Shown: positions 1 through 34,699 of the stretch, in pieces
How the letters are laid out: each line of letters begins with the position of its first letter
Numbering within the stretch: the stretch's first letter is position 1
IMG/VR virus record: IMGVR_UViG_2663763326_000006
DNA from: a virus
Taxonomy: Duplodnaviria; Heunggongvirae; Uroviricota; Caudoviricetes
Length of the DNA: 36,849 nt
Direction: 5' to 3' (one strand)
The notes under the pieces: generated by a model
What the model was told of the DNA's origin: nothing
The model's database searches: none
Seen by the model: the letters and a program-made list of their open reading frames with translations, nothing else
Made by a program: the position numbers and the translations under genes

Positions 1-390
1 TTACTCTTTTTTCTCCGTATCTGCATCGGGTTCATCAGCAAATAGCTTGCCCTGCATCCGATCCAGTTCTTCTTTTCTTACCCGCTTAACCACGCTGTAG
101 ACCCACTGAAGCGAAACACCAAATTTGCGGGCCAGTTCGTGGTGGTTGCGTCCGTTAAACTCCCTGAAGATTTCCCGGTCGCGCTGACTGACCTTCCATA
201 CCATGCCCATCGGGAAATAAACGTTTTGCCCGCCCCAGACCTGCATCATTCGGTTCGCGACGGCCTGACCAATCTGGTCGGCAACTTCGGGCTCAATATC
301 AATAATCTCGCGAACGGTCTCAGAGGTATGCTGTGCCAGTTCCACCAGGAGTTCCGGCCCCTTACTTCGAAACTGATTCAGGTCGCTCAT
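1..390 (-). CDS. mor: Mor/C-family transcription activator (129 aa)
   Basis: C-terminal HTH segment ELARKFGVSLQWVYSVVKR typical of Mor/C family; lies directly downstream of the GemA-like gene, as mor does in Mu; stop codon at window position 1-3. Confidence 0.7.
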   Translation of the reverse strand: MSDLNQFRSKGPELLVELAQHTSETVREIIDIEPEVADQIGQAVANRMMQVWGGQNVYFPMGMVWKVSQRDREIFREFNGRNHHELARKFGVSLQWVYSVVKRVRKEELDRMQGKLFADEPDADTEKKE

Positions 391-811
391 GTTTGACTCC
401 CGCAGCTCTGCGCTGCCACTTCTTCAGTTTCTCAATAACACTGCTTGCCTGTTCAGTACTGAGCCAGCGCAGGGCGCTGATGCCCGTTTCCCGCTTGATC
501 CACCTCGCTAATGCATTTTCTGAACGGTCACGAACAATGCCGGCAGCAGCCATTTCAAGCCATAGCGCACGAATTTTCCTGGACTGCGGATGGTTATCAA
601 GCGGTAAACCGGAGCTGGCTTTTCTGGCTGGTTTAACGCGAAAGCCTTTCTTTTTCATGGATTCCAGCACGCAGTTTAGTTGTGTGGTATCCATTCCTTT
701 GGTTGAGGCTTTACCGGTCAGCCCCTGTAACATCTGGCGGTAGGTGTCTTCATCCATACCCAGTTCATTACGGGCAATATGGATAAGCTGTATCAGGCGT
801 TTTTTCTGCAT
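362..811 (-). CDS. gemA: GemA-like early protein (Mu gp16 family, 149 aa)
   Basis: Size, basic C-terminus and position immediately upstream of the Mor-like gene; 29-nt overlap with the next gene suggests coupling. Confidence 0.55.
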   Translation of the reverse strand: MQKKRLIQLIHIARNELGMDEDTYRQMLQGLTGKASTKGMDTTQLNCVLESMKKKGFRVKPARKASSGLPLDNHPQSRKIRALWLEMAAAGIVRDRSENALARWIKRETGISALRWLSTEQASSVIEKLKKWQRRAAGVKHERPESVSK

Positions 812-812
812 A

Positions 813-1019
813 TCATCTCCTTTTTTTCAGTCTGTCGGCAACAATGTCGGTTGCAGCTGGCAGGGTGACTGGCCAGAACAACATGACGGCGGTCATGTAC
901 AGGATGTAATGCGCGGTGTCGTAGTGCCTGCCATAGCCCAGGGAACGATGAAGTCTTGCGCTGCATGATCCTGCGTACATATACCAGAAAAGAAAACAGA
1001 CAATGGTTTCAGTAGTCAT
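813..1019 (-). CDS. small membrane protein (68 aa)
   Basis: Start chosen at internal ATG (1017-1019) with GGAGG RBS 7 nt upstream; hydrophobic segments; the longer 120-aa ORF start has no RBS. Confidence 0.45.
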   Translation of the reverse strand: MTTETIVCFLFWYMYAGSCSARLHRSLGYGRHYDTAHYILYMTAVMLFWPVTLPAATDIVADRLKKRR

Positions 1020-1239
1020 TCTGAATACCTCCCCATTCGATATGAATATTACGGGCAGCAATGACAGGGTCGTTATTCCACCATGCACCTGACATGTATT
1101 TTTCAACCTGTTCGCGTCCGGCAATAACACCAATTGTGATCCCCGGCCTGACGTTCTTAAAAAAGGCGCGGGCAAAAAGGTATCTGGCAGATATTCGGCA
1201 GGCTTTTAATTTCCGGCTTTTACCTGATAGCGTAATCAT
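1009..1239 (-). CDS. hypothetical early-region protein (76 aa)
   Basis: ORF tightly packed in the minus-strand operon with short overlaps to both neighbours. Confidence 0.4.
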   Translation of the reverse strand: MITLSGKSRKLKACRISARYLFARAFFKNVRPGITIGVIAGREQVEKYMSGAWWNNDPVIAARNIHIEWGGIQNDY

Positions 1240-1919
1240 CTGGCCTCCAGTTTCTGTTGTTCCTGCCCACTGACCGGGCGGTGCAGTCTGACGTTCTGCC
1301 CTTCACGAAACCCCGCATAGCGCGAGGCGTCGCCATTGCGGCTTCTTCCCGGTTTACGCGCCCTGGTGGTTTGCGTCTGCGGGTATTTATGTTCCAGCCA
1401 CTGCTGCATCAGTTCACGCTCATCATCGGTCAGGGCAAAGGACTGTATTTCACTGATAACGGCCAGCACCCAGCCTTCGGCAAACTGGTCTCCACGGCTG
1501 GTGCGGGTGGCGGTTTTTATTCTTTTGTTCTGTGCACTGATATACTGCTGACGCGCCTTTTTCAGCTGACGGGCCAGCACTTCCCAGGTGTATGCAGCCA
1601 GTGCCGCACGTTCCCGGTTGCCGTAGAACCCCACAGACGGATGCGTGCCGGGGTGAATGATGGAGTTAACACCAAATACCTCGCGGATGATGTTCATCAG
1701 GCCCAGCATGTAGCGCGGTGGACGGAGACTGCCTGTCGGCCAGTAGTGACTGATGGTTTCATCAATATCACTCATAGCAATGTCGGAATGTGTGATGCCG
1801 TGAACATCCATCAGTTTACGGGCTCGGCGCAGTGCCAGAGCGGCCTCGTGCGGGTTGCCGGATGCGGCCAGCGCCAGCAACTTTTTCAGTTTCTCAATGT
1901 GTTTATTCTGGTCTGTCAT
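1236..1919 (-). CDS. DUF2786-like phage protein (about 227 aa)
   Basis: N-terminus after internal Met reads IEKLKKLLALAASGNPHEAALALRRARKLMDVHG, resembling the DUF2786 N-terminal motif; start overlaps upstream stop. Confidence 0.5.
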   Translation of the reverse strand: MTDQNKHIEKLKKLLALAASGNPHEAALALRRARKLMDVHGITHSDIAMSDIDETISHYWPTGSLRPPRYMLGLMNIIREVFGVNSIIHPGTHPSVGFYGNRERAALAAYTWEVLARQLKKARQQYISAQNKRIKTATRTSRGDQFAEGWVLAVISEIQSFALTDDERELMQQWLEHKYPQTQTTRARKPGRSRNGDASRYAGFREGQNVRLHRPVSGQEQQKLEAR

Positions 1920-2131
1920 TGTTCTGTATCTCCGGTATTTTTCTGCCGTTTCCATGCCCGGACAGCGTCGGACAGCTCTTTCAGGCTGTATGCTGCTTTA
2001 AGCTTTTCCCATAACCACTGTGTTGTTATGTGCATCAGCAGGGCAGCCAGGGCTGCCCCCGCACTGAGGCATGTCGCCAGGCCAGTAAGAATCAGTGTCC
2101 ATGCGGTGATTTCCCTGAGTATGTCAGCCAT
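1916..2131 (-). CDS. small membrane protein (71 aa)
   Basis: Single long hydrophobic stretch WTLILTGLATCLSAGAALAALLMHI; operon context. Confidence 0.45.
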   Translation of the reverse strand: MADILREITAWTLILTGLATCLSAGAALAALLMHITTQWLWEKLKAAYSLKELSDAVRAWKRQKNTGDTEQ

Positions 2132-2145
2132 TGAATGCCTCCCGG

Positions 2146-2442
2146 TTACTCGTTCGTGTAAATCACGCCCAGTCGTGCAGCCAGACGTTCCAGTTTTTTC
2201 TGTTTGTGGAAGTCAATCAGCCGGTCCATCCCCTGAAGGCGCAGTTGCTCTGTCATGATTTCCACGTCTGCCAGCTCTGCCGCGAGGTCACTTTCGCTGC
2301 CCTGTCCGTTCAGGTTGCGGGCGGCACTGGCCGCCAGTTCAGCGGCCTCTTCTGCCAGTTTCAGGGCCTGTGCGTCCGGCCCGAAACGCTGCAGGGCCAG
2401 ACGGTAGAGGGCGGTGCGGGTGAGTTCGGTGTTTCGTGTCAT
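2146..2442 (-). CDS. MazG-like nucleotide pyrophosphohydrolase domain protein (98 aa)
   Basis: EEAAEL (E-E-x-x-E) and ELADVEI motifs spaced as in MazG-like NTP-PPase domains. Confidence 0.45.
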   Translation of the reverse strand: MTRNTELTRTALYRLALQRFGPDAQALKLAEEAAELAASAARNLNGQGSESDLAAELADVEIMTEQLRLQGMDRLIDFHKQKKLERLAARLGVIYTNE

Positions 2443-2451
2443 GCCGCGCCC

Positions 2452-2724
2452 TCAGTGCTTCCGGCTGACGGTGATGTGCAGGCCGCCTTCTGCAGTGGTT
2501 TCCATCCGGTACGGCACCTCATGCTCTGCCGTGTGGGTGAGTGTGTTCATCAGTACCTGCAGGGCAGCCTCCTTTCCGTTGGTCGCCACAATGGCCTGTG
2601 TGGCCATGCTGATTAGCGCCGTCAGGACGTGCTTCACATCGGTGAGGTCGCGGCATTCACACTCGTTGACATAGTGTTCAACAAGGGTTCGGGTGCGCTG
2701 TCGTGCTTCCTGTGGGGTAATCAT
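2452..2724 (-). CDS. hypothetical early-region protein (90 aa)
   Basis: ORF with 4-nt start/stop overlap to the upstream zinc-ribbon gene. Confidence 0.4.
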   Translation of the reverse strand: MITPQEARQRTRTLVEHYVNECECRDLTDVKHVLTALISMATQAIVATNGKEAALQVLMNTLTHTAEHEVPYRMETTAEGGLHITVSRKH

Positions 2725-2915
2725 TGCGAGTCCTCCCTGTCAGGGCGGGAGAATTCCATGACGGGCACGTCTGCCGAAAAATGCTGGCTGCAGTACGGGC
2801 AGACCAGGGTGACGCGTACCGCAGGGATGTGGTATTTACCGGACATCACGGCGATGGCGCTGTGAAAACGCAGGGCTGTTATATCCCTCTCGCACTGAAT
2901 ACATTTAAATATCAT
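2721..2915 (-). CDS. zinc-ribbon protein, Com-like (64 aa)
   Basis: Two Cys pairs (CIQC ... CPYC); GAGGAG RBS upstream of the start. Confidence 0.5.
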   Translation of the reverse strand: MIFKCIQCERDITALRFHSAIAVMSGKYHIPAVRVTLVCPYCSQHFSADVPVMEFSRPDREDSQ

Positions 2916-3012: not shown

Positions 3013-3543
3013 TTACTGCACATCCTGCTCAAAAGGAATTATTGAAAAATCCTCAATGTCGCTTTTAATGGAAATACCGGGAATATTTTTCACGGCCTCT
3101 TTTTCATTCAGGATAGCGTCTTTATTTATTTCCTCTTTTACACGAATAAAGCGCTCAAGCCCCAGACGTCTCAGTAATTCAATAACATTATCCGCCCCAC
3201 GGATACTGACTGATGGCGGACGGTTTCGCCACTGCACCTCGCCGGTGGTGAGGTTAGCGAACTTCACCTTCCCGTTGCCGGTCAGTTCATCACGGTGTGC
3301 CTCACACCATGTCTGAATACCGGACTGCAGTTCGGCCATGCGTTTTTTCAGGCTCTCGGTGAGCGGGGCATAACGTGCGGTGATATCGCCAATGGCGTCA
3401 TTCATTTCTGTTTCAGCCCTGACCAGTTCACGTTGTGCGTCACCGAGTAGTCTGATTCCCTCAATGACCTCTTCACGTGTCCCCGGCACCCAGAGTGCTG
3501 CTGCGGCCTTGATACGTTTTGCACCTTTTGTACTTTTTGCCAT
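3013..3543 (-). CDS. gam: host-nuclease inhibitor Gam (Mu Gam family, 176 aa)
   Basis: N-terminus MAKSTKGAKRIKAAAALWVP, internal VSIRGADNVIELLRRLGLERFIRVKEEINKDAIL and C-terminal DFSIIPFEQ match Mu Gam pattern and length. Confidence 0.8.
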   Translation of the reverse strand: MAKSTKGAKRIKAAAALWVPGTREEVIEGIRLLGDAQRELVRAETEMNDAIGDITARYAPLTESLKKRMAELQSGIQTWCEAHRDELTGNGKVKFANLTTGEVQWRNRPPSVSIRGADNVIELLRRLGLERFIRVKEEINKDAILNEKEAVKNIPGISIKSDIEDFSIIPFEQDVQ

Positions 3544-3842: not shown

Positions 3843-5009
3843 TTAAACCCCTTTGACAACGTCAGCGTTGACCTGTGGAACCCCGATTTCAGCGGCCAGA
3901 TTCATGGCGGCTATTACCAGGTTACTGACGGCCAGCGGATACAGCAGGCTGACCATATTTTTACGGTGACTTCCCGGATTGCTCAGGCGGGCACGTATGG
4001 CATCCACTGCACCGGCGTCCATAATGTCCGTCAGCTGTTTACCGGCCCGTTGCAGTTTGAACGTCAGAAATTCTTCAAGGTTATTGTCCAGAGGCAGAAG
4101 TTCGACCACCTCACAGCGCTGAACGACTTCACGGACTTCCATATTGCGTTCAGACAGTTTTGTCGCCAGTTCCGGCTGGCCAATCAGCACGATGGACAGC
4201 AGTTTTTTGAAACCGGACTCCAGCTCAAAAAAGCGTTTGAGGTGTTTCAGTGTCGGAATGGGCAGACTGTGGGCCTCCTCAATCACCAGAACGTGGCTGA
4301 ACCCCGCCTGGCTGCTGTCTTTCAGGACGCGATGCAACTGGCGAAAACGGGCGTCCTGACTGCGTCTGATGCTTTCCAGTGGTGCGATGGTACTGATAAT
4401 GGCTTCGGCAATAGCTGCTGCCTTCAGGGTTTTCCCTTTCACATCGTTGTCTTCCATAGCGATGATGTATGGCTCGATAACAATTACCGGCGCATTCTCG
4501 CGGTTGATACGTTCAGTCAGGTCGCGGCGCAGCGTGGATTTACCCGCACCGGACTCACCGATGACGGCCATAAACCCACCATGACGGGCTGTCTGGTACA
4601 GCGCCTCACGCACGTAGCGAATGTCCGGGGTGGTGAACACATCATCAGAACCCTGCATGGCTTCGTCGGCGAACGGGTCACGGAAAAGACCAAACGCTTT
4701 TTTGGTTGCTGGAAATAACACCTGTTTTTTGAGTAACATATTCTCTTCCTCACTGAGGCTCGTTTTATCTGTGGTACCCGCTGTACGGGGCGTGGCCGCG
4801 CCCTGTACAGCATCAAAACTCTTCGTTGTATCAATCCCCTGACTTTCCAGCCAGGACGCAAGACGCCGGCGCACTTCTCCGGGGCTGGTGCGGGGCCACG
4901 CGTTATGATTCACAATCTGGGCCAGCGTGGCCTCAGAAACATCGACAGCTCTCGCCACCACCGCCTGTGGAATACGGGCCTCTTTCAGTTGCTGCTTCAG
5001 TACCAGCAT
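3843..5009 (-). CDS. transposition ATPase, MuB-like AAA+ protein (about 388 aa)
   Basis: Walker A GESGAGKST, Walker-B-like HVLVIEEAH, N-terminal HTH; start at internal ATG preceded by GAGGAGG RBS overlapping the transposase stop. Confidence 0.75.
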   Translation of the reverse strand: MLVLKQQLKEARIPQAVVARAVDVSEATLAQIVNHNAWPRTSPGEVRRRLASWLESQGIDTTKSFDAVQGAATPRTAGTTDKTSLSEEENMLLKKQVLFPATKKAFGLFRDPFADEAMQGSDDVFTTPDIRYVREALYQTARHGGFMAVIGESGAGKSTLRRDLTERINRENAPVIVIEPYIIAMEDNDVKGKTLKAAAIAEAIISTIAPLESIRRSQDARFRQLHRVLKDSSQAGFSHVLVIEEAHSLPIPTLKHLKRFFELESGFKKLLSIVLIGQPELATKLSERNMEVREVVQRCEVVELLPLDNNLEEFLTFKLQRAGKQLTDIMDAGAVDAIRARLSNPGSHRKNMVSLLYPLAVSNLVIAAMNLAAEIGVPQVNADVVKGV

Positions 5010-5019: not shown

Positions 5020-6789
5020 TCAGTTGCCGTTAACAATGCTGATAACACTGCTGCGGGCCGGTGTGGTCAGCGTGGCCATGACTTCATCCAGTGCGGCTTC
5101 CGGTACGCCGTCCGGGTACTGTGCCGTTAACTGGCGGTAATGTTCCGGCGTCCAGGTAAGGCCGTCGGCGCTGAACTTATCGCGCAGGGCTTTCGCGGCC
5201 TCCACATGAGTCATGGGACGTTGTTCAGTGCGCGGCCCGCGTACGTCAGAGGCCTGACCACGCTTCGGCATATAGGCCGGAAGTGTGGTGTCGTCGATAT
5301 GTTTATACGGGTCAAGCCGCCCGCCGAACGGCAGCGCCTTCGCCTTGCGTGCGGCGGCTGCATCTGCGGCGTTGTCTGTACCGGTAACCAGCGCTTCGGT
5401 TTCTTTTGCCGCCATCTGTGCCGGGGTTTCCGGCAGGGCTTTGTAACTTTCGCCAAATACCGCCGCGCCTTCAGCAAAGCCAAACTCGTTCTTTCTGACC
5501 TCTTCGACCAGGAAGAACGTCTCGTGGCCGTCCTCACCGGTCAGAACCACCTGTGCCACATCGCTGCGCCATGGGTTACGGGTAATCATCAGTTTTTCAC
5601 CAACCAGTACGCCCGGTACCGTTGATACGTCAAATTCAGTGCCCCGGAACGAGACACGAAGTTTTGGCGTGACTTTGCGGAGTTCTGGTGCCGCCACAGC
5701 CAGTTCACGACATACCTCAACGGAAGGCGCTTTTTTCAGCTGCTCAGCAGTAATCTTCAGCCAGATATCCGTGCGGGTTTTACCGTGGCGGCTGTGAACA
5801 GCCGTGGCGTTAAAGTGGCTGCGCCATTTCGCGGCCAGCGCGTTGAGTTCTTCCAGACTGTGAACCGGCCGGAACTTCAGACCCGGCTCCAGCTTGCGTT
5901 CGATAATGTCACGCGCCTTTTCCACCTGTCCGGTGGCGCGGGCGTTATGCGGCTTGTGCGCTATCAGGTCGATGCCCAGTGAGCGGCACATGTTTTTCGT
6001 CATACCCGCGGTGTTTGCCGAGCCGGGGTCGAGATAGAGTATTTTCGGCACGCCGTGCAGCACGTCTGCGCCGCCACGCTCCTGCATGGCGTTGATAAGC
6101 ACAGAACACAGGTTCTCACCTGATTCCGCGCCCGTCACATACTCAACGTAAATCCAGCCGCTGGCATGGTCGGTAATCTCGTAACTCCACACGCGGTCAC
6201 TGGCGATACGGGCAAGGTTAGCGGGCTTGTTCTTGTAGAACTTCGCGCTGTCCATCACCTGCAGCCCTTTATGTCCATTGCTCAGGTAGTAAAGCGTGCA
6301 GAGTGAGGCGTCAATCTGCCAGACATGATTGGGATGCAGACTGGCCACTTCGGTATGTGGTGCAGGGGCATCCAGTTGTTCCGGGTGCAGGCCATAGTTA
6401 CGCAGAGCACGGCTGATGGCATCTTCAGACAACGGGAAAAACTCACTGGTGGTTTCATCTGTTCTGCCTGCGGTGATAAAGCCGTTAGCCCGCAGGGTTT
6501 CCACTGCATCTGCGATGGAATAGAGACGCTTACCGTTCTTGCGGGTGGCCTCACGCAGTGTGGCAGATATCAGCGCGGCTTCGTCGCGGGTCAGGGCGCT
6601 GCGCCCGGCATCGGCGCGTTTTTTGCGTTTATCAGTCACAGATACCTCCTTCAGCCTGCGCAGCAGAGTGGCGCGGGACATGCCAAGTTCAGCACAGGCA
6701 GCGTCGTATATTGCACCGCGTTTACCATGCCCCGCGTCACGTGCCGCGCGGGCTGTTTCAACCAGTTTTTCAGTCAGTGCCGGGGTCAT
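5020..6789 (-). CDS. DDE transposase, Mu A-like (rve integrase core; 589 aa)
   Basis: N-terminal HTH, HVWQIDAS catalytic-core motif; directly followed by MuB-like ATPase. Confidence 0.8.
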   Translation of the reverse strand: MTPALTEKLVETARAARDAGHGKRGAIYDAACAELGMSRATLLRRLKEVSVTDKRKKRADAGRSALTRDEAALISATLREATRKNGKRLYSIADAVETLRANGFITAGRTDETTSEFFPLSEDAISRALRNYGLHPEQLDAPAPHTEVASLHPNHVWQIDASLCTLYYLSNGHKGLQVMDSAKFYKNKPANLARIASDRVWSYEITDHASGWIYVEYVTGAESGENLCSVLINAMQERGGADVLHGVPKILYLDPGSANTAGMTKNMCRSLGIDLIAHKPHNARATGQVEKARDIIERKLEPGLKFRPVHSLEELNALAAKWRSHFNATAVHSRHGKTRTDIWLKITAEQLKKAPSVEVCRELAVAAPELRKVTPKLRVSFRGTEFDVSTVPGVLVGEKLMITRNPWRSDVAQVVLTGEDGHETFFLVEEVRKNEFGFAEGAAVFGESYKALPETPAQMAAKETEALVTGTDNAADAAAARKAKALPFGGRLDPYKHIDDTTLPAYMPKRGQASDVRGPRTEQRPMTHVEAAKALRDKFSADGLTWTPEHYRQLTAQYPDGVPEAALDEVMATLTTPARSSVISIVNGN

Positions 6790-6804: not shown

Positions 6805-7122
6805 TTATCCGATTCTGGCGGCAATTTTTCTGGCGAGGTCGCACAGTGTTTCGCCATCGCAGGTTTTCACCACGGTATTTACCGGTTGCGGTGCAACTAC
6901 CGGGCGTAATGCTGACTGATTCTGCAGACGTCTTATCTGCTGCATCAGCATCACCTCCATCGTCAGTACAAACGGGTGCGTCTCCTGTGCGGGTACGCAG
7001 ATTTCACCGGAAGGGGTCACCACGCGGAAACCCTGCACCATCTCCGGCAGCAGATTACACAGTGCGTGCCCCAGTGCCTCCGGGCTGTCCATCAGGGTAT
7101 TTTGTGTGTTATTCGTATTCAT
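6805..7122 (-). CDS. hypothetical protein upstream of transposase (105 aa)
   Basis: ORF in early operon; no recognisable motif. Confidence 0.4.
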   Translation of the reverse strand: MNTNNTQNTLMDSPEALGHALCNLLPEMVQGFRVVTPSGEICVPAQETHPFVLTMEVMLMQQIRRLQNQSALRPVVAPQPVNTVVKTCDGETLCDLARKIAARIG

Positions 7123-8042: not shown

Positions 8043-8052
8043 TGATTACTCC

Positions 8053-8367
8053 TTACAAACGACTACCTGAAATGACACGTTGGTTAATTTCGTTAATACG
8101 ATCCTGTGCACGTGCCATCTCGTTACTGTGGGCCATGGCGATCTGCAGTAACTGGATGCCCGGTGCAAAACGTCCGTTCTCCAGTTTCAGAGCCAGCCCT
8201 TCTTCAATGAGGGTGTTGAGTGCCCGGTTGATGTTTGCCGGTGACTCGTGCAGTGCTGTCGCCAGTTCACCGTTAGAAATACCGTTCAGGGCATGACCGC
8301 GCAGCGCTTTGAGTACCCGGAGGATGCGACTGCCGGAGCTTGAAACATTCGTCTTACTCATCTGCAT
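8053..8367 (-). CDS. winged-helix DNA-binding regulator, IclR-N-terminal-like (104 aa)
   Basis: Motif RILRVLKALRGHALNGISNGELATALHESPANINRALNTLIEEGL resembles an IclR-type HTH. Confidence 0.45.
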   Translation of the reverse strand: MQMSKTNVSSSGSRILRVLKALRGHALNGISNGELATALHESPANINRALNTLIEEGLALKLENGRFAPGIQLLQIAMAHSNEMARAQDRINEINQRVISGSRL

Positions 8368-8413
8368 ACCTCTTTTGCGATATGTGATAACCTTTTACAA
8401 AGACTCAAAATAT

Positions 8414-8602
8414 TTAGGCCGCCTGAGCTGTTGATTTCAGTCCCAACTTCACGGCGATTTCATGGGATTTACCGTAACGGGCTTTGGTCTGCCCGTTGAG
8501 AACGCGGTATACCTCATTGCGGTTGTAGCCGTTTTCTTCTGCCCAGCGGGTGAAAGTGATCCCGCGCTGGCGGAAGAGAGCTTTGACTTGTTCTGCAGTC
8601 AT
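8414..8602 (-). CDS. ner: Ner-like small DNA-binding protein (62 aa)
   Basis: Pattern ALFRQRGITFTRWAEENGYNRNEVYRVL...GKSHEIAVKLGLK parallels Mu Ner/Nlp; first gene of leftward operon, divergent from repressor. Confidence 0.55.
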   Translation of the reverse strand: MTAEQVKALFRQRGITFTRWAEENGYNRNEVYRVLNGQTKARYGKSHEIAVKLGLKSTAQAA

Positions 8603-28405: not shown

Positions 28406-29289
28406 TGTTTGCCGTACTGGGTGATATTGAGTTTGAGCTGATTACCTACTGGGACGGCTTCGAGGCCACGTTCGGCGTCGATTATGCGGAGCATGCCCGC
28501 ATCGGGGGTAAGCCTGGTCTGCAGTTCGTCGGCGACAGGCTGGACGAAATCCAGATAACTCTGGTTTTCCATCAGCATTATTGTGTACCCGATGTGGAGC
28601 TGGCGAGACTGCGAACAGCCATGAAAGCCCATCAGGCACTGGCGCTGGTCTTCGGCAACGGTGACTATCGCGGCTGGTTCGTGATCACCGATGTGACTGC
28701 AACCAGCGAGCAGACTGACAGTACCGGCAACGTGCTGGCTGTCAGTGCCACCGTGTCTCTCCGGGAATACACCGGTGACCCGAAAAATCCTCTGCAACCA
28801 CCGGCAATACGCACGAAGCTCCCGGGTGTCGGGGCGGTCTCCGGTGCCATACCTTCACCTTCAGGGGTGGCGCAGTTCATCCGCAACGGCGTCAACTATG
28901 CGAAACAGGCGCAGTCTGTACTCCAGACCACTATCAGCGCCGTTCGGGTGACACAGAAAATGAAGGATAACCCCGTTGTCGCACTGACCCGTGTGCCGGG
29001 GCTGATGAGCGGACTGGGTAATATCTCCGGGGCTCTGGGGAAAAGTGTTCCGGCGTTTAACGCACTCTCTGAATCCATGCCCGATGCCATCAGTCTGGCC
29101 AGAACAGCCAGCGAAGCAGCCACGTATGTACAGCAGGCACAGTCTGCGCTGAGTGGTGTGGACAAAAGAAATATTGCAGGTGCTCTGGATACCGTTTCCG
29201 GGCAGCTTAACGCCGTCGGCACAGCATTCAACCGCATGTCTCCGGGATTAAGTGCAATGGCCGCCAGAATACTGACGAGGAGTGTGTGA
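28405..29289 (+). CDS. tail protein with P2 gpU-like N-terminal domain and C-terminal extension (294 aa)
   Basis: Position after tape measure in P2 gene order; start overlaps tape-measure stop. Confidence 0.45.
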   Translation: MFAVLGDIEFELITYWDGFEATFGVDYAEHARIGGKPGLQFVGDRLDEIQITLVFHQHYCVPDVELARLRTAMKAHQALALVFGNGDYRGWFVITDVTATSEQTDSTGNVLAVSATVSLREYTGDPKNPLQPPAIRTKLPGVGAVSGAIPSPSGVAQFIRNGVNYAKQAQSVLQTTISAVRVTQKMKDNPVVALTRVPGLMSGLGNISGALGKSVPAFNALSESMPDAISLARTASEAATYVQQAQSALSGVDKRNIAGALDTVSGQLNAVGTAFNRMSPGLSAMAARILTRSV

Positions 29290-29501
29290 TGTTTCTTGAA
29301 CATGTTACCCGTGACGGAGAGCGCTGGGATTCGCTGGCATGGCAGTACTACGGTGACCCGCTGGGCTATCCCCGGATTATTGCCGCCAATCCGCACGTGG
29401 CCATCACGCCGGTGCTGCCCTCCGGGCTGTTGTTACTGATCCCGGTGATTGAGGCTGAAGAAGCCCGTACAGAAGAGGATATTGCCCCATGGCTGAGATA
29501 A
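29286..29501 (+). CDS. tail protein X-like (71 aa)
   Basis: Pattern WDSLAWQYYGDPLGYPRIIAANPHVA resembles P2 gpX; precedes gpD-like gene. Confidence 0.6.
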   Translation: MMFLEHVTRDGERWDSLAWQYYGDPLGYPRIIAANPHVAITPVLPSGLLLLIPVIEAEEARTEEDIAPWLR

Positions 29502-30622
29502 ACAGCACTGCGCAAGTCACATCAGCGTTAACCGGCGTCAGCGATGTGCTGACACCGGTGTTCACTCTGTGGTATCTGCAGAAAAACATCACCTCTGATA
29601 TCGCGCCTTATGTCACCCGTGTGACCTGGAGCGATAACATCAAAAATGAGTCCGATACCATTGAGGTGGAGCTGGACGACACCGATGGCCGCTGGCTGGA
29701 TAAATGGTATCCGGGCAAGGGTGACACGCTGACGCTGAAAATGGGCTATCAGGGCGAGAAGCTGCTGTCCTGCGGTACGTTCTCTATAGACGAGATCGAA
29801 GTGAGTTCGCCCGCTTCCGTTGTTTCTATCCGTGGGGTGGCCACCTCGGTTAACAGTGCCCTGCGGACTAAAACCAGTCGTGGTTTTGAGAACACCACGC
29901 TGGCAGCTGTTGCGGGGCGGATTGCCAGAAAGCACCGGCTGAAACTGGTGGGCAGCATTGAGTCCATCAGAATCGACCGGGTGACCCAGTATGCTGAAAC
30001 CGACGTGGGTTTTCTGCGCCGGCTGGCCAGCGAGTATGGTTATGCAGTGAAAGTGGTCAGTGACCAGCTGATTTTTTCTCATCTGGCCACACTGCGCAGT
30101 CAGGAGCCGGTCAGGCAGTTAAAACCGCAGGATGTGGCCCGCTTTTCCCTGCGTGACACCATCAACCGGGTCTATAAATCTGCAAAGGTAAAACACCAGA
30201 AAAGCAGCAGTAAAAAACTGATCGTCTACGAAGCTGATGGTGGTACCCGTGAAAGCGACAAAAAGCTCAAAGGTGGTAAGGTTACCAGCGCTGACTCACT
30301 TAAAGTTAACAGCCGCGTCAGCGACCCGGACAGTGCCCGGATTAAAGCGGATTCAGCACTGGCCAGACATAACGAATACCAGCAGAACGGCTCCCTGACG
30401 CTGACGGGAACACCTCAACTGACAGCAGGCAACAAAATTGAACTGGTGAGTTTTGGGCAGTTATCCGGGCCATGGCTCATAACCACTGCCCGCCATGCGT
30501 TTGACCGTAACAGCGGCTACACCACAGAGCTGGAAGTGGCACGGGGCCAGTCACAAGAGGGAAAAAACAAAAAACTCAGAAACTCACGGTTTATCACCCG
30601 GATGGCAGTACATCGACGGTGA
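29489..30622 (+). CDS. tail protein D (P2 gpD / Mu P-like, 377 aa)
   Basis: Size and synteny between X-like and V-like genes. Confidence 0.75.
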   Translation: MAEINSTAQVTSALTGVSDVLTPVFTLWYLQKNITSDIAPYVTRVTWSDNIKNESDTIEVELDDTDGRWLDKWYPGKGDTLTLKMGYQGEKLLSCGTFSIDEIEVSSPASVVSIRGVATSVNSALRTKTSRGFENTTLAAVAGRIARKHRLKLVGSIESIRIDRVTQYAETDVGFLRRLASEYGYAVKVVSDQLIFSHLATLRSQEPVRQLKPQDVARFSLRDTINRVYKSAKVKHQKSSSKKLIVYEADGGTRESDKKLKGGKVTSADSLKVNSRVSDPDSARIKADSALARHNEYQQNGSLTLTGTPQLTAGNKIELVSFGQLSGPWLITTARHAFDRNSGYTTELEVARGQSQEGKNKKLRNSRFITRMAVHRR

Positions 30623-30638
30623 TTAAGGAGAAGAAAAA

Positions 30639-31235
30639 ATGACTGGTGTCACTCGTCAGGTCGGTACGGTCAGTGCCGTTGATGCCGACAGGGTTCAGGC
30701 CCGCGTTCGTCTGCCTGAATGCGATAACCTGCGCACAAACTGGCTTAACGTGCTGCAGCGCAATACCCAGGATAACAAAGATTACTGGCTCCCTGACGTG
30801 GGGGAGCAGGTTGAGGTGCTGCTCGATGCCAACGGCGAGGATGGTGTTATTCTGGGCGCGGTGTATTCAGACGTCGATAAACCACCGTTCAGTGACAAAA
30901 ATATCCGGGGAACCCGGTTTGCTGATGGTGCAGAGTACAGCTACAACCGGAAGACGCACACTCTGATCATCCGGGGCGGCATTGAGCATATTGTCATTGA
31001 GTGTGGTGCTGATGTGGTATTGAAAACACAGAAAGCCACGATTGACGCACCGGAAACCGAACTTACCGGAGATCTGCGTGTCAGGGGTAAGCTGATTTAC
31101 GAAGGAGGCATGGCGGGTTCTGGTGGTGAAGGTGTTACCGCGACCATCCATGGCAATATCGAGATTAAAGGGAATGTCCATGCCACGGGCAGTATGTTGT
31201 CTGATGGCGAAAACTCCAGCCACCACTCCCACTGA
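30639..31235 (+). CDS. baseplate spike/assembly protein V (198 aa)
   Basis: Size, Gly-rich C-terminus, histidine-rich end; precedes W and J. Confidence 0.75.
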   Translation: MTGVTRQVGTVSAVDADRVQARVRLPECDNLRTNWLNVLQRNTQDNKDYWLPDVGEQVEVLLDANGEDGVILGAVYSDVDKPPFSDKNIRGTRFADGAEYSYNRKTHTLIIRGGIEHIVIECGADVVLKTQKATIDAPETELTGDLRVRGKLIYEGGMAGSGGEGVTATIHGNIEIKGNVHATGSMLSDGENSSHHSH

Positions 31236-31248
31236 GCTTTTTAAACGC

Positions 31249-31258
31249 CTTTAATATC
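31249..31258 (+). promoter_or_regulatory. CTTTAATATC motif, candidate late-promoter element upstream of baseplate W
   Basis: 31 bp upstream of ATG 31289; followed by GGGGCA-ATAC-TGCCCC hairpin abutting the start codon. Confidence 0.3.
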
Positions 31259-31288
31259 AGCGTTCCCGCACGGGGGCAATACTGCCCC

Positions 31289-31635
31289 ATGAAAACAACC
31301 TCAGTATTCTGGCAACCAGCCCTGCAGGCTCCCGGCGAAATTGTCCGGGGGCTGGATGATATCCGGCAGGCGATTCAAATTATCCTGCGGACTCCCCGCG
31401 GCAGCGACCCGCATCGCCCGGAGTTCGGCAGCAATCTGCATCTTTATATCGACTGGCCTGTAGACCGGGCCATTCCGCATGTGGTGCGCGAATCCGTCGA
31501 TGCCATCCGGCGCTGGGAGCCCGCTGCCAGCTTATGTCAGTTAAACCCGCCGTCGACGGCGAACATCTTACGCTCCGGGTGAGCTGGAAAGGCTCAGACG
31601 GACAGACCCGGACTCAGGAGCTGCTATGGCGCTGA
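31289..31635 (+). pseudogene. baseplate protein W (GPW/gp25 family) with apparent single-base frame break
   Basis: Frame of ATG 31289 reads through RRWEP then junk; -1 frame continues RCQLMSVKPAVDGEHLTLRVSWKGSDGQTRTQELLWR to a stop overlapping J; break at CCC 31520-31522. Confidence 0.65.
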
Positions 31636-32729
31636 CAGAACCCGATTTTATTGAACGCGATGCCGACAAAATCACGGCAGAAATGATTGCGAAGTATGAA
31701 GCGGATACCGGCAAAACGCTGTACCCGGCACAGGCAGAACGTCTGCTGATTGATCTGTGGGCCTATCGCGAAATGCTGGTCAGGGTTGCGGTACAGGAGG
31801 CAGCAAAGCAGAATCTGGTCGCCTTTGCCCGTGAGCCGATGATTGATTACCTCGGTGAACTGGTCGGTGTATACCGTCTTGCCGCGCAGCCTGCCACCAC
31901 CACGCTCCAGTTCTCCGTAGATGAGGCACTGGCCATTGATGTGCTGATCCCGGCAGGCACCCGCGTCAGCGCTTCCGACAGCGTTATTTTTGCCACCGAT
32001 ACAGATGTGGTACTGAAGGCCGGATTGCTGCTGGTCAATGTCACGGCCACCTGTACCGAACCCGGTACCGCTGGTAACGGCTGGCAACCTGCGCAGGTCA
32101 GTCAGTTACTCGATGAGATTGATAACGTTAACCTGCTGGTGAGCAATCTGATGGCCAGTTCCGGCGGTTCAGAACAGGAAGACGATGACAGGCTCCGGGA
32201 GCGTATCAGGCTGGCCCCGGAGTCATTCACCAATGCCGGAAGCCGTGGCGCATACCGCTTTCATGCCATGCAGGCCCATCCCAACATTGTCGATGTTGCT
32301 GTGCTTTCCCCGGTTCCCGGGACCGTAGATCTGTATCCGCTGCTCAGTACCGGTCTGCCGGACGGCGGTGTTCTCACGCTGGTAGAGAGTTTCTGCTCTG
32401 ATGAGAAAGTCAGGCCACTCACTGATACAGTGCGGGCTAAAACACCAGTGAAGGTGGATTACACCATTGAAGCCAGGATTACGATCTATCGTGATCAGGA
32501 TGCCAGGTCTGTAAAAGATGCCGCTAACAGCGCCATACAGAACTGGGTGGCATCACGTGCCGCCACGCTGGGGCGCGATATTGTCCCCAGCCAGATTATC
32601 AGTGCATTGTCCGTTTCCGGGGTGTACCAGGTTGAACTGGTGACACCGGCACTGCGGGTGGTGGCAGAAAACGAATGGGCAAACTGTACGGCAATCACTC
32701 TTAACATGACTGGAGTGTCTGATGACTGA
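31626..32729 (+). CDS. baseplate protein J (367 aa)
   Basis: Size and synteny V-W-J-I-H. Confidence 0.8.
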   Translation: MALTEPDFIERDADKITAEMIAKYEADTGKTLYPAQAERLLIDLWAYREMLVRVAVQEAAKQNLVAFAREPMIDYLGELVGVYRLAAQPATTTLQFSVDEALAIDVLIPAGTRVSASDSVIFATDTDVVLKAGLLLVNVTATCTEPGTAGNGWQPAQVSQLLDEIDNVNLLVSNLMASSGGSEQEDDDRLRERIRLAPESFTNAGSRGAYRFHAMQAHPNIVDVAVLSPVPGTVDLYPLLSTGLPDGGVLTLVESFCSDEKVRPLTDTVRAKTPVKVDYTIEARITIYRDQDARSVKDAANSAIQNWVASRAATLGRDIVPSQIISALSVSGVYQVELVTPALRVVAENEWANCTAITLNMTGVSDD

Positions 32730-33300
32730 GCCATTACAACTCCCGCCACCGCTTGAGGGTGATATCAGTCTCAGGACGCTGGGAAGACTGGCAGGACGGC
32801 TGGATAACATCGACCTGAGCGTACTGATGGTCTTTCTCGTCGATATCGTCGACAGTTCCGCGCTGCCATGGCTGGGCGAGCAGTTCTCACTGTCTGGCGA
32901 TGGCTGGGAGCTGGCGGAATCGGACGATGTTCGCCGCATGCTTATAAAAGCAGCCATCGAACTGCACCGGTATAAAGGGACGCCGTGGTCAATCCGGGAA
33001 GTTATCCGCCGTTTTGGCTTTGGTGAAGTGGATCTGATTGAAGGCACAGGTCGTCTCAGTTACGACGGCAATCGCAGCTATAACGGACTGTTTGTTCATG
33101 GAGATGCAGCCGCCTGGGCAGTTTATCGCGTTATTCTGAAACAGCCCATTACTAACGATCAGGCCGCGATGCTGCGTCAGACGCTGGCTGCATTTGCACC
33201 GGCCCGCTGCCATCTGGCCAGCCTGGAGTATCAGTCTGTGGCCATTCGCTATAACAATACCGCCATCCATGATGGCAGTTATAACCACGGGAGCAGTTGA
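32722..33300 (+). CDS. tail protein I (192 aa)
   Basis: Synteny between J and tail fibre; overlapping starts. Confidence 0.65.
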   Translation: MTEPLQLPPPLEGDISLRTLGRLAGRLDNIDLSVLMVFLVDIVDSSALPWLGEQFSLSGDGWELAESDDVRRMLIKAAIELHRYKGTPWSIREVIRRFGFGEVDLIEGTGRLSYDGNRSYNGLFVHGDAAAWAVYRVILKQPITNDQAAMLRQTLAAFAPARCHLASLEYQSVAIRYNNTAIHDGSYNHGSS

Positions 33301-34550
33301 TTATGGGAAACCTGAATGAAACAGAAAAGTGGGAAGAAAATATCTATCAACTGGAGACATCAGATCCGGTTCTGGGTGGTGCAGACGGGATATCAAATCG
33401 AGCCCCCCGGCAACTGGCAAACAGGACGAAATGGCTGAAGAAGAAAACGGAGGAAGCCGCACAGTCACTGGCTGAACACGTACGTTCCCGTAACCACCCG
33501 GACGCGACACTGACAGCTAAGGGGTTCACCCAACTGAGCAGTGCCACCAACAGCACCTCTGAAACGCTGGCCGCCACACCAAAAGCGGTCAAGGCTGCAT
33601 ACGACCTGGCAGCCGGCAAGGCGCCTGCCAGCCACACTCACCCGTGGAGTCAGATAACGGGAGTGCCTGCGGCTTCACTGACGGCAAAAGGCACCGTACA
33701 ACTGAGCAGCGCCACGGACAGTCAATCAGAAACTGAGGCTGCCACGCCGAAGGCGGTCAAGGCTGCATACGACCTTGCAGCCGGCAAGGCGCCCGTCAGC
33801 CACACTCACCCGTGGAGTCAGATAACGGGAGTGCCTGCTGCCTCGCTGACGGCAAAAGGCACCGTACAATTGAGCAGTGCCATCAACAGCACGTCTGAAA
33901 TACTGGCCGCCACACCGAAAGCGGTCAAGGCTGCATACGATCTGGCAAACGGAAAACAACCGGCAGATGCCACGCTCACTGCTCTGGCAGGACTTGCCAC
34001 TGCAGCAGATCGGTTGCCTTATTTTACCGGAGCAGACCGCGCAGAGCTGGCAACCCTTACAGCTATTGGTCGCGCTATTATCGCTAAGGGCAGTATAAAA
34101 GATGTCCTCAATTACCTTGGTTTGGGGGAAGGCTCGGCGCTGCCCGTTGGTGTACCTGTTCCGTGGCCCACTGCCACACCGCCAGCAGGCTGGTTAAAGT
34201 GCGACGGGCGCGCCTTTACAAAAGAACAATATCCTGTTCTGGCCAGAGTCTACCCGACCCTCCGTCTTCCCGATTTACGCGGTGAGTTTATCCGTGGATG
34301 GGACGACGGGCGAAAAGTGGATACAGGGCGCGATCTGCTTTCACGGCAGGATGGTACAAGTTTTTCTCATTACGCAGGTAATTTTGACATTGGGTCTGGT
34401 CATTCAATCAATAACTATGACCAAATCGTTGACAACCAACCTGGATTCTCCCGTTTTTCATTTGCAGGTCCTTCGCGAGGCGATGGGGTTAATTATGTGA
34501 CCATTCGTCCCCGTAACATTGCGTTTAATTACATCGTAAGGGCGGCATAG
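33297..34550 (+). CDS. tail fibre protein with fibre repeats and C-terminal tail-collar-like domain (417 aa)
   Basis: Three tandem 56-aa repeats; C-terminal VPWPTATPPAGWLKCDGRAFTKEQYPVLARVY...LPDLRGEFIRGWDDG resembles the tail-collar domain. Confidence 0.8.
   Translation: MIMGNLNETEKWEENIYQLETSDPVLGGADGISNRAPRQLANRTKWLKKKTEEAAQSLAEHVRSRNHPDATLTAKGFTQLSSATNSTSETLAATPKAVKAAYDLAAGKAPASHTHPWSQITGVPAASLTAKGTVQLSSATDSQSETEAATPKAVKAAYDLAAGKAPVSHTHPWSQITGVPAASLTAKGTVQLSSAINSTSEILAATPKAVKAAYDLANGKQPADATLTALAGLATAADRLPYFTGADRAELATLTAIGRAIIAKGSIKDVLNYLGLGEGSALPVGVPVPWPTATPPAGWLKCDGRAFTKEQYPVLARVYPTLRLPDLRGEFIRGWDDGRKVDTGRDLLSRQDGTSFSHYAGNFDIGSGHSINNYDQIVDNQPGFSRFSFAGPSRGDGVNYVTIRPRNIAFNYIVRAA
33510..33950 (+). 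repeat. about 2.6 tandem copies of a 168-bp (56-codon) tail-fibre repeat
   Basis: Repeat units start at 33510, 33678 and 33846; encode LTAKGTVQLSSA...AATPKAVKAAYDLA. Confidence 0.85.
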
Positions 34551-34554
34551 AAAC

Positions 34555-34699
34555 GTTGGTTTAGGAGAAGGCTCGGCGCTACCCGTTGGTGTGCCTGTTC
34601 CGTGGCCCACCGCCACACCGCCAGCAGGCTGGTTAAAGTGCGACGGGCGCGCCTTTACAAAAGAACAATATCCTGTTCTGGCCAGAGTCTACCCGACCC
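34555..34699 (+). other. second tail-collar cassette fragment, direct repeat of 34115-34262, truncated by IS26
   Basis: About 145 bp roughly 95 percent identical to the start of the collar-domain region, ending at the IS26 boundary. Confidence 0.6.

What the first reader, a model, noticed from the sequence alone, without database searches (positions are those of the whole stretch)
1..34699. Transposable prophage with early module inverted relative to late genes: BcepMu-type layout, Mu-like head, P2-ordered tail
The transposition and early genes all read leftward on the minus strand, away from the lysis and structural genes that read rightward. In Mu itself these modules are collinear. Head genes are Mu-like while the tail follows P2 order (sheath, tube, E/E-prime, T, U, X, D, V, W, J, I, H). 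This combination is what I recall for BcepMu-like phages. The window starts exactly at the Mor-like stop, so the left prophage end is outside the window.
Basis: partly seen in the sequence, partly recalled or inferred. Interest (0 to 1): 0.5.

Follow-up and report, generated by a model that had tools for sequence, protein, structure and literature searches.

The report
Known BcepMu-like transposable prophage, IS26-truncated
This is a copy of a common, already catalogued E. coli prophage of the BcepMu type (a virus that inserts by transposition and combines Mu-like packaging genes with a P2-like tail); in this copy an IS26 resistance element has cut off the right end, so the finding is correct but ordinary.

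Summary
Window 1-8602 is a leftward early operon: Ner-like, transposase, AAA+ partner, Gam, GemA, Mor. A rightward repressor gene sits at 8696-9052. Lysis, head and tail genes read rightward from 11577 to 34550.

The reading as a BcepMu-type phage also holds. 36 of 51 ORFs hit BcepMu in the same order and on the same strand (31-76% aa). There is no MuA or MuB homologue. Packaging and portal genes are Mu-like, and the tail genes are P2 homologues.

It is not new. Window 1-34249 is 99.99% identical to GenBank Escherichia phage PhiKM, which is filed under Bcepmuvirus. The same prophage occurs in 640 of 5426 complete E. coli genomes.

Corrections:
- The tail gene order is BcepMu's, which parallels Mu's, not P2's physical order.
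- The target duplication is 6 bp, not 5 bp.
- The capsid and protease genes are not detectably Mu-like.
- Position 34699 is not the phage end. IS26 (34700-35519) cuts the tail-fibre cassette region, so about 2.2 kb (fibre chaperone, invertase, right end) is missing.
- The left end lies 163 bp beyond window position 1.
- Five 1-nt homopolymer deletions disrupt late genes.

This copy is probably defective.

The parts
1..390 (-). Mor/C-family late-transcription activator. It is the last gene of the leftward early operon.
   Evidence: Pfam Mor E=1e-43. 54% aa to BcepMu gp01 and 30% to Mu Mor.
362..811 (-). GemA/gp16 homologue
   Evidence: Pfam GemA E=8e-41. 44% to BcepMu gp02 and 36% to Mu gp16.
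813..2915 (-). Seven small early genes of unknown function, including a DUF2786 protein at 1236-1919
   Evidence: ORFs and RefSeq annotation of the AR_0067 copy. PHROG 421, unknown function. No BcepMu, Mu or P2 hit.
3013..3543 (-). Gam host-nuclease inhibitor. It is Mu-like and absent from BcepMu.
   Evidence: 62% aa to Mu Gam over 169 aa, with no BcepMu hit.
3843..5009 (-). AAA+ transposition ATPase, the functional analogue of MuB (ExeA-type)
   Evidence: 59% to BcepMu gp08 over 404 aa, with no Mu hit. Pfam AAA_22.
5020..6789 (-). DDE (rve) transposase of the BcepMu / Tn552-IS1604 type
   Evidence: 68% aa to BcepMu gp09 over 581 aa and no MuA hit. Pfam finds rve only. 208 species-representative genomes encode relatives.
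6805..8602 (-). Promoter-proximal early genes: unknown 105 aa, DUF3102 (BcepMu gp10-like), winged-HTH (gp12-like), and a Ner/Cro-like 62-aa DNA-binding protein (gp16-like)
8603..8695 (.). Divergent control region between the early operon and the repressor gene. It is the inferred lysogeny switch.
   Evidence: Inferred from position. It is analogous to the BcepMu gene 16/17 interface described in PMC2771037. Not tested.
8696..9052 (+). HTH_3 / CI-type repressor candidate
   Evidence: Pfam HTH_3 E=4.5e-15 and Phage_CI_repr E=2e-5.
9169..11446 (.). Accessory block on mixed strands: Dam-type orphan adenine methylase (9169-9933, minus) and three unknown genes (10124-10339 minus, 10338-10742 plus, 10718-11446 minus)
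   Evidence: PHROG 56, PADLOC MTase_II, and PHROGs 4490, 2266 and 3787 of unknown function. No defence-system hit.
11577..13304 (+). Lysis cassette: holin, SLT transglycosylase endolysin, Rz-like spanin
   Evidence: Pfam Holin_2-3 and SLT. PHROG 1403 Rz-like spanin. 52%, 61% and 32% to BcepMu gp21-23.
13938..18834 (+). Mu-type packaging and head-completion genes: TerS (gp27-like), TerL (gp28-like), portal (gp29-like), F, G
   Evidence: Pfam Phage_Mu_Gp27, Portal_Mu, Phage_Mu_F and Phage_tail_S. TerL 49%, portal 27%, F 47% and G 29% to Mu. The same genes are 44-67% to BcepMu.
19049..21132 (+). Head protease/scaffold and major capsid protein. Both are BcepMu-like and not detectably Mu-like.
   Evidence: 50% and 44% to BcepMu gp32 and gp34, with no Mu hit. 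PHROG 976 head maturation protease. Only a weak Phage_cap_E match for the capsid protein.
21142..22642 (+). DUF2190, gp36-like, gp37-like and gp38-like head-tail joining genes. DUF2190 and gp36 are fused here by a 1-nt deletion at 21439.
   Evidence: Pfam Phage_Mu_Gp36 and Gp37 on near-identical relatives.
22632..25379 (+). Sheath (FI), tube (FII), an unknown 93-aa gene, tail chaperone E, and an overlapping E'-like ORF in the +1 frame
   Evidence: Pfam Phage_sheath_1, Phage_tube and Phage_TAC_7. Sheath and tube are 76% and 67% to BcepMu and 33% and 29% to P2 FI and FII. Three-frame translation shows the E' ORF and a G5 run at 25286-25290 (position).
25455..28405 (+). Tape-measure gene, split into 631-aa and 313-aa ORFs by a 1-nt deletion at 27262
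   Evidence: Pfam PhageMin_Tail. A single 983-aa gene in AR_0067. Indel list.
28405..33300 (+). P2-type U, X, D, V, W, J and I baseplate/tail genes. D is truncated by a deletion at 30543 and W by one at 31520.
   Evidence: Pfam GpU, Tail_X, GPD, base_V and Baseplate_J. GPW_gp25 and Tail_P2_I on relatives. 25-35% to the P2 homologues and 46-68% to BcepMu.
33297..34550 (+). Tail fibre H (417 aa) with a variable C-terminal cassette after the crossover repeat 34197-34260
   Evidence: Pfam Phage_fiber_2 x3 and Collar. 49% to P2 H. Repeat seen.
34551..34699 (+). Start of a second, directly oriented fibre cassette. It is cut 11 nt past the conserved 53-bp repeat core (copy 34636-34688); the window's two copies stay identical for 64 bp, right up to the cut (34636-34699 = 34197-34260).
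   Evidence: The same H-plus-cassette arrangement continues in E. coli S7.
34700..35519 (.). IS26, 820 bp with intact inverted repeats. It is not part of the phage.
   Evidence: 100% matches to IS26. Inverted repeats at 34700 and 35506. The flanking 8-mers differ, CCCGACCC versus GGCCGCCG.
35836..36849 (-). intI1, the class 1 integron integrase. It is not part of the phage.
   Evidence: The IS26-intI1 segment is 100% identical to many resistance plasmids.

Best explanation
Window 1-34699 is most of one copy of a temperate, transposable myovirus of the BcepMu type that is widespread in E. coli.

Inferred working of intact copies:
- A CI-type repressor (8696-9052) holds the divergent early promoter shut.
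- On induction, the leftward operon makes a Ner-like regulator, a Tn552-type DDE transposase, its AAA+ partner, Gam, GemA and finally Mor.
- The transposase binds paired 9-bp sites, 12 and 35 nt from each TGA...TCA terminus. It inserts the genome at many different sites with 6-bp target duplications (five distinct sites were seen), and by analogy with BcepMu and Mu it replicates by transposition.
- Mor then turns on the rightward lysis, head and tail operons.
- A Mu-type terminase and portal package headfuls from integrated copies.
- A P2-homologous contractile tail is built, and a Gin-type invertase shuffles the fibre cassettes.

This particular copy has lost the right-hand ~2.2 kb to an IS26 / class 1 integron junction. 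The lost part includes the fibre chaperone, the invertase and the right transposase-binding end. The copy also carries five frameshifting 1-nt deletions in late genes. It is therefore most likely an immobile, defective remnant.
For: - Identity: 99.99% to phage PhiKM, which GenBank files under Bcepmuvirus.
- Prevalence: present in 640 of 5426 complete E. coli genomes.
- Similarity to BcepMu: collinear, same-strand protein matches for 36 of 51 ORFs, and all 13 nucleotide HSPs are collinear.
- Domains: Pfam and PHROG assignments agree.
- Ends and duplications in relatives: TTTCAG|TGATTAG...GCGCATCA|TTTCAG inside fliZ, and TTCTTC|...|TTCTTC between ycaL and aroA.
- Further insertion sites: yeiB, beside pepN, and an Fe2+ ABC permease gene.
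- End motifs: G(A/C)GATA(A/T)(A/T)T at nt 12 and 35 of both ends. My reading of the BcepMu end sequences printed puts the motif at the same positions there.
- Layout across species: among 59 species-representative loci with both genes, TerL is divergent from the transposase in 55.
- Truncation: the IS26 inverted repeat starts at 34700, and neither phage end nor the invertase is present in the window.
- Frameshifts.
- Literature: the BcepMu-like genus is described in PMC2771037. A Bcepmuvirus prophage is reported in ST131 genomes in bioRxiv 10.1101/2022.05.07.487787.
Against: - Nothing in the window shows transposition directly. Both ends lie outside it, so the end structure and duplications come from near-identical copies elsewhere.
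- Replicative transposition, Mor-dependent late transcription and headful packaging are inferred from BcepMu and Mu. They were not tested.
- The missing right part could lie beyond the resistance region, outside the window.
- Four of the five frameshifts are private to this sequence, and all five are G/C homopolymer deletions. They stand against only one substitution relative to PhiKM, which looks like sequencing error. 'Defective' therefore rests mainly on the IS26 cut.
Confidence: 0.93

Rival explanations
1. The prophage is complete and functional. The IS26 / class 1 integron region is a simple insertion into the fibre cassette region, the rest of the phage follows beyond the window, and the five frameshifts are sequencing errors.
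For: - The window ends inside the resistance region, so the far side is unseen.
- All five frameshifts are G/C homopolymer deletions, against only one substitution versus PhiKM.
Against: - The 8-mers flanking the visible IS26 differ.
- Even a simple insertion of IS26 plus an integron would separate the second fibre cassette and the right end from the rest by several kb. From what is known of Mu headful packaging, that is likely to exceed capsid capacity.
- The phage|IS26 junction was found in no other genome, plasmid or metagenome contig searched.
Confidence: 0.12
2. The phage|IS26 join is an assembly chimera across a multicopy IS26. In that case the real prophage is intact and the integron lies elsewhere.
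For: - IS26 occurs at a median of 6-7 places per E. coli genome that has it.
- The homopolymer deletions hint at error-prone reads.
- The junction is unique to this window.
Against: - The phage sequence stops in the middle of a cassette, exactly at the IS26 inverted repeat, as a true insertion or deletion junction would.
- A repeat-collapse chimera still needs a real IS26 copy at that phage position.
Confidence: 0.06
3. The region is two adjacent, unrelated elements rather than one phage: a Mu-like early/head remnant next to a P2-like tail cluster or tailocin.
For: The modules have different nearest classical relatives: Mu for packaging, P2 for the tail.
Against: - The whole unit is bounded by one pair of inverted ends and one 6-bp duplication at two independent sites.
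- It is collinear with BcepMu throughout.
- There is no P2 integrase, cos site or P2 capsid gene.
Confidence: 0.01

Closest known systems
Escherichia phage PhiKM (GenBank PQ738613, partial genome, filed under Bcepmuvirus), and the same prophage in E. coli genomes such as AR_0067, LS4, 4/1-1 and S7
   Same: - Window 1-34249 is 99.99% identical to PhiKM: one substitution and five 1-nt indels.
- It is 99.3% identical to the AR_0067 copy over window 1-33947, with the same genes and order in the AR_0067, LS4 and 4/1-1 copies.
   Different: - The window lacks the left 163 bp because of the window edge.
- It lacks the right ~2.2 kb, which is replaced by IS26-intI1.
- It carries five homopolymer deletions.
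- It contains the 186 bp that PhiKM has as a 100-N gap.
- PhiKM's record joins the fibre repeat to a host Fe2+ ABC permease fragment and then to the left end.
Burkholderia phage BcepMu (NC_005882), type of the BcepMu-like viruses / Bcepmuvirus
   Same: - Early operon on the bottom strand, ending in GemA-Mor at the left end.
- Tn552-type rve transposase (68% aa) and an ExeA-type ATPase (59%).
- Repressor and Cro-like genes at the strand switch.
- Lysis cassette of holin, SLT and Rz.
- Mu-type TerS, TerL, portal, F and G.
- Tail gene order FI-FII-E-T-U-X-D-V-W-J-I-H.
- TGA...TCA termini, with the 9-bp motif at nt 12 and 35.
   Different: - Only about 21% nucleotide similarity (32% aligned at 68% identity).
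- This phage adds a Mu-like Gam, a Dam methylase and different small early genes.
- Intact copies have a Mu-like invertible multi-cassette fibre region with a Gin-type invertase, which BcepMu is stated to lack (PMC2771037).
- There is no homologue of the BcepMu gp53 acyltransferase.
Escherichia phage Mu (NC_000929)
   Same: - Transposable temperate myovirus.
- Same internal order of the early operon (ner-like, transposase, ATPase, gam, gemA, mor).
- Homologous Gam, GemA, Mor, TerL, portal, F and G.
- Parallel order of tail functions.
- Invertible fibre segment in intact copies.
   Different: - The early operon is inverted relative to the late genes.
- The transposase and ATPase are not MuA or MuB homologues.
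- The target duplication is 6 bp, not 5 bp.
- Capsid, protease and nearly all tail proteins are unrelated at BLAST level.
- There is no separate C activator and no mom gene.
Enterobacteria phage P2 (NC_001895)
   Same: Homologues of FI, FII, E, U, X, D, V, W, J, I and H by tblastn or Pfam family (the tape-measure gene matches only a generic Pfam family). Identities where tblastn hits are 25-49%. Order within each of the two P2 tail operons is kept.
   Different: - The two operon blocks are swapped and X is relocated.
- Head, lysis, replication, integration (tyrosine integrase, cos ends) and regulation genes are all unrelated.

Membership tests
BcepMu-like transposable phages (as described by Lavigne et al. 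2009, PMC2771037) | Transposase of the Tn552/IS1604 rve type, unrelated to MuA | tested here: met
   68% aa identity to BcepMu gp09 over 581 aa and no tblastn hit to Mu at E<1e-3. Pfam finds rve only.
BcepMu-like transposable phages (as described by Lavigne et al. 2009, PMC2771037) | Two gene clusters: early/transposition genes on the bottom strand, lysis/head/tail genes on the top strand, with the lysogeny control genes at the interface | tested here: met
   The same divergent arrangement is seen in 55 of 59 related loci from other species.
BcepMu-like transposable phages (as described by Lavigne et al. 2009, PMC2771037) | TerL homologous to Mu TerL, with Mu-type head-completion genes | tested here: met
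   TerL is 49% to Mu gp28. Pfam finds Portal_Mu, Phage_Mu_F and Phage_Mu_Gp27.
BcepMu-like transposable phages (as described by Lavigne et al. 2009, PMC2771037) | Tail cassette related to P2 in sequence | tested here: met
   Nine P2 tail proteins are hit by tblastn. Pfam finds the P2 families GpU, X, GPD, V and J in window proteins (W and I on near-identical relatives). The gene order equals BcepMu's, not P2's physical map.
BcepMu-like transposable phages (as described by Lavigne et al. 2009, PMC2771037) | TG...CA termini, insertion at many different sites, and host DNA on virion ends | tested here: inconclusive
   - Both ends lie outside the window.
- In near-identical copies the termini are TGA...TCA, with 6-bp duplications at two sites and five distinct insertion loci in all.
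- Host DNA on virion ends cannot be tested here.
Genus Bcepmuvirus under the ICTV nucleotide criterion (about 70% identity over the genome; recalled from memory) | At least ~70% genome-wide nucleotide similarity to BcepMu | tested here: not met
   32% of 34,699 nt aligns at 68% identity, giving about 21%. GenBank nevertheless files the identical PhiKM under Bcepmuvirus. It is therefore a family-level relative and probably a separate genus.
Muvirus (Mu proper) | MuA/MuB transposition proteins and a collinear early-middle-late map | tested here: not met
   No MuA or MuB hit, and the early operon is inverted.
Peduoviridae (P2-like) | P2-type capsid, terminase and portal (Q, P, O, N, M), cos ends, and a tyrosine integrase | tested here: not met
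   No hit to any P2 head, packaging or integrase gene from the phage part. The only integrase-family hit is intI1, which lies outside the phage.

The most novel reading that the evidence does not exclude
The 1-nt deletions in G/C runs of the late genes may be real and recurrent rather than sequencing errors. The D 377-aa form occurs in three other assemblies and the W 97-aa form in eight other contigs, each time on its own. That would mean homopolymer slippage repeatedly knocks out, or phase-varies, tail genes of this very common E. coli prophage. This copy would then be caught after IS26 immobilised it and decay set in.
Probability: 0.1. Interest if true: 0.3.

Novelty: already known. Interest (0 to 1): 0.12.

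Why it matters
It matters little for discovery. The phage type was described in 2004-2009, an essentially identical phage is in GenBank, and prophage finders routinely label this element 'BcepMu' in uropathogenic and ST131 E. coli.

The practical value is in annotation:
- It is a transposable prophage, not a site-specific one. Its position differs between strains and it disrupts genes such as fliZ and yeiB.
- In this genome it has served as a landing site for an IS26 / class 1 integron resistance region, which probably immobilised it.

Tried and rejected
- **Finding the source contig and its flanks.** Exact-protein look-ups of the frameshifted W and D products found other assemblies carrying one deletion each, but none with IS26. 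Exact scans for the 40-nt phage|IS26 junction in genome contigs and metagenome contigs found nothing. BLAST against complete E. coli genomes and plasmids found no record spanning the junction.
- **Literature on 'PhiKM'.** The search returned only unrelated phiKMV-type hits. The original BcepMu paper (PubMed 15184022) is not held, so its reported duplication length could not be checked.
- **Defence genes in the accessory block 9169-11446.** PADLOC found only the orphan methylase.
- **tRNA-linked integration.** There are no tRNA genes in the window.
- **'Site-specific integrase' next to Mor in AR_0067.** I considered that this pseudogene marks a second element. I rejected that: it lies beside tcyJ, where the missing fliZ C-terminus is expected, and the same 6-bp duplication flanks both ends of the prophage.
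- **A -1 E/E' frameshift as in P2.** The E' ORF is in the +1 frame and no X XXY YYZ heptamer was found in the overlap.


Full report
**What is in the window**

The ORF map was read against the RefSeq annotation of a 99.3% identical prophage in E. coli AR_0067.
- A leftward operon runs from 8602 down to position 1. It encodes a 62-aa Ner/Cro-like protein, a winged-HTH protein, DUF3102, a 589-aa transposase, a 388-aa AAA+ protein, Gam, several small unknowns, GemA and Mor.
- A CI-type HTH gene (8696-9052) diverges from this operon.
- A mixed-strand accessory block (9169-11446) holds a Dam-type methylase and three genes of unknown function.
- From 11577 to 34550 everything reads rightward:
  - lysis: holin, SLT endolysin, spanin;
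  - packaging and head: TerS, TerL, portal, F, G, protease/scaffold, capsid, DUF2190, gp36, gp37, gp38;
  - tail: sheath, tube, E (with an overlapping E'-like ORF), tape measure, U, X, D, V, W, J, I, H.
- Pfam and PHROG assignments agree with these names.
- Position 1 is the last base of the Mor stop codon, and the last base of the window is the A of the intI1 ATG. Both window edges are therefore gene-boundary cuts, not biological ends.

**Is it BcepMu-type?**

tblastn of 51 phage ORFs against BcepMu, Mu and P2 gave the following.
- *BcepMu.* 36 ORFs hit, all in the same order and on the same strand, at 31-76% identity. Examples are transposase 68% over 581 aa, ATPase 59% and sheath 76%.
- *Mu.* Only Mor (30%), GemA (36%), Gam (62%), TerL (49%), portal (27%), F (47%), G (29%) and J/gp47 (28%) hit. 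Nothing hits MuA or MuB, and Pfam sees only an rve core in the transposase.
- *P2.* FI, FII, U, D, V, W, J, I and H hit at 25-49%.
- All 13 nucleotide HSPs to BcepMu are collinear.

This matches the published description of BcepMu-like viruses: bottom-strand genes 1-13, top-strand genes 17-52, a Tn552/IS1604-type transposase, a Mu-like TerL and a P2-like tail (PMC2771037).

The layout is a family trait. Eighty loci from species-representative genomes encode a 50-94% identical transposase. TerL was detectable in 59 of them. It lies upstream on the opposite strand in 55 and downstream on the same strand in 4.

1. The tail order is not P2's physical order. P2 has X at 6.5 kb, V-W-J-I-H-G at 10.3-15.3 kb and FI-FII-E-T-U-D at 17.6-24 kb. 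Here the F block precedes the V block and X lies between U and D. That is BcepMu's order, and it parallels Mu's sheath-to-fibre order.
2. 'Mu-like head' holds for the gp27, 28, 29, F, G, 36 and 37 homologues. The protease/scaffold and the major capsid protein have no Mu hit, and the capsid protein has only a weak Phage_cap_E match.
3. The target duplication is 6 bp, not 5 bp.

**Ends and mobility, read from near-identical copies**

Neither phage end is in the window.
- In AR_0067 the element is 36,954 bp and sits inside fliZ: ...TTTCAG|TGATTAGACTTGAG...GCGCATCA|TTTCAG...
- In LS4 and 4/1-1 it is 37,045 bp and lies between ycaL and aroA, flanked by TTCTTC on both sides.
- Further sites are yeiB in strain S7, beside pepN in a metagenome contig, and an Fe2+ ABC permease gene in the PhiKM record.
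- The left end lies 163 bp beyond window position 1.
- Both ends carry the motif G(A/C)GATA(A/T)(A/T)T at nt 12 and 35. My reading of the BcepMu end sequences printed puts the motif at the same positions there, which points to conserved transposase-binding sites.
- The 'site-specific integrase' pseudogene next to Mor in AR_0067 is best read as the C-terminal piece of the disrupted fliZ. That reading is my inference, resting partly on the known integrase-like domain of FliZ.

**The right boundary**

- Phage DNA stops at 34699 because IS26 (34700-35519, intact inverted repeats) begins there. IS26 is followed by a Tn21-type remnant and intI1 (35836-36849, minus strand).
- The cut lies 11 nt past the conserved 53-bp repeat core at the start of a second, directly oriented fibre cassette (copy at 34636-34688). 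The window's two copies stay identical for 64 bp, up to the cut itself (34197-34260 = 34636-34699).
- In strain S7, which has the same cassette arrangement, the next ~2.2 kb carries the rest of that cassette, a fibre assembly chaperone, an inverted cassette, a Gin-type invertase and the right end. None of this is present in the window.
- The 8-mers on either side of IS26 differ.
- The phage|IS26 junction occurs in no searched collection.
- The IS26-intI1 segment itself is 100% identical to many resistance plasmids.

**Frameshifts**

Relative to PhiKM, AR_0067, LS4 and 4/1-1, the window has 1-nt deletions in G/C runs at 21439, 27262, 30543, 31285 and 31520.
- They fuse DUF2190 to gp36.
- They split the tape-measure gene.
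- They truncate D (377 versus 384 aa) and W (97 versus 115 aa).
- The W form recurs in eight other contigs and the D form in three other assemblies, each alone.
- Against PhiKM there is only one substitution in 34 kb, so sequencing error is the likelier cause for most of them. Real decay is not excluded.

**What is already known**

- Window 1-34249 is 99.99% identical to Escherichia phage PhiKM from a uropathogenic isolate, filed under Bcepmuvirus.
- It is 86-87% identical to 'Klebsiella phage KP12 clone KP12_2' and to Phi06_2974 B.
- The first 3 kb occurs in 640 of 5426 complete E. coli genomes, with 715 of 716 places on chromosomes.
- A UPEC genome paper lists a 36.8-kb 'BcepMu' region (PMC10955171).
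- The ST131 wound-isolate study lists a Bcepmuvirus prophage. One of its strains, 4/1-1, is among the genomes examined here.
- Nucleotide similarity to BcepMu itself is only about 21%. Under the usual 70% genus rule (recalled from memory) it would be a sister genus rather than Bcepmuvirus proper.

**How it most likely works**

- Shown here: gene content, homologies, the strand layout, and (in sister copies) the end structure, the 6-bp duplications and the multiple insertion sites.
- Inferred from BcepMu and Mu biology:
  - repressor control at the divergent promoter;
  - transposase plus AAA+ partner driving integration and replicative transposition;
  - Mor as the single activator of the distant late operons;
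  - headful packaging;
  - invertase-driven fibre switching.
- For this copy: loss of the right end and invertase, and possibly the frameshifts, makes it most likely an immobile remnant next to a resistance region.

**Verdict**

The element is already known, so interest is low.

Noticed in passing
window 34700-36849: IS26 (820 bp) followed by a 316-bp Tn21-type remnant and a complete intI1 on the minus strand. A class 1 integron resistance region therefore abuts the truncated prophage. The phage|IS26 junction was found in no other genome, plasmid or metagenome contig searched.
   Followed up: partly
window 21439, 27262, 30543, 31285, 31520: Five 1-nt deletions in G/C homopolymers relative to PhiKM and three complete genomes. 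Four disrupt DUF2190/gp36, the tape measure, D and W; the fifth (31285) lies just upstream of the W start. The D and W variants recur singly in other public assemblies, and the other three were absent from every comparator that covers the site.
   Followed up: partly
L047, L049, L053, L079 (related loci): Four loci with the same BcepMu-type transposase have TerS and TerL downstream on the same strand. In L047 the order is Tnp-B-Gam-GemA-Mor-holin-SLT-TerS-TerL, which is a Mu-like collinear map. Both orientations of the early module therefore exist within this transposase family.
   Followed up: no
window 33297-34699; L002 36308-39713; L096 2315-6550: Intact relatives carry a multi-cassette tail-fibre region with a Gin-type invertase, and the cassette number and orientation differ between strains. 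BcepMu is reported to lack any fibre inversion system. The window has two cassettes in direct orientation that share a 64-bp repeat.
   Followed up: partly
window 24962-25379: The E'-like ORF lies in the +1 frame relative to E. There is a G5 run at 25286-25290 and no classical -1 slippery heptamer, unlike the -1 frameshift annotated for P2 E/E'.
   Followed up: partly
L001 (PQ738613) 20234-20576: The PhiKM record joins the fibre crossover repeat to 343 bp of a host Fe2+ ABC permease gene and then to the phage left end. It also has a 100-N gap in the tape-measure gene. The deposited 'phage genome' is a permuted, partly chimeric assembly.
   Followed up: partly
L015 (OM835952, Klebsiella phage KP12 clone KP12_2): An 86-87% identical BcepMu-like element is filed in GenBank under Vequintavirinae. 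It looks like a co-sequenced prophage filed under the wrong taxon.
   Followed up: no
one search hits H45, H46, H49 (E. coli AR_0067, AR_0086, AR_0081): Some genomes have 2-3 places matching the first 3 kb of the prophage, which suggests more than one copy per chromosome.
   Followed up: no
L002 2584-2838: PGAP labels the C-terminal fragment of the phage-disrupted fliZ as an 'incomplete site-specific integrase'. This could mislead readers into inferring site-specific integration.
   Followed up: partly
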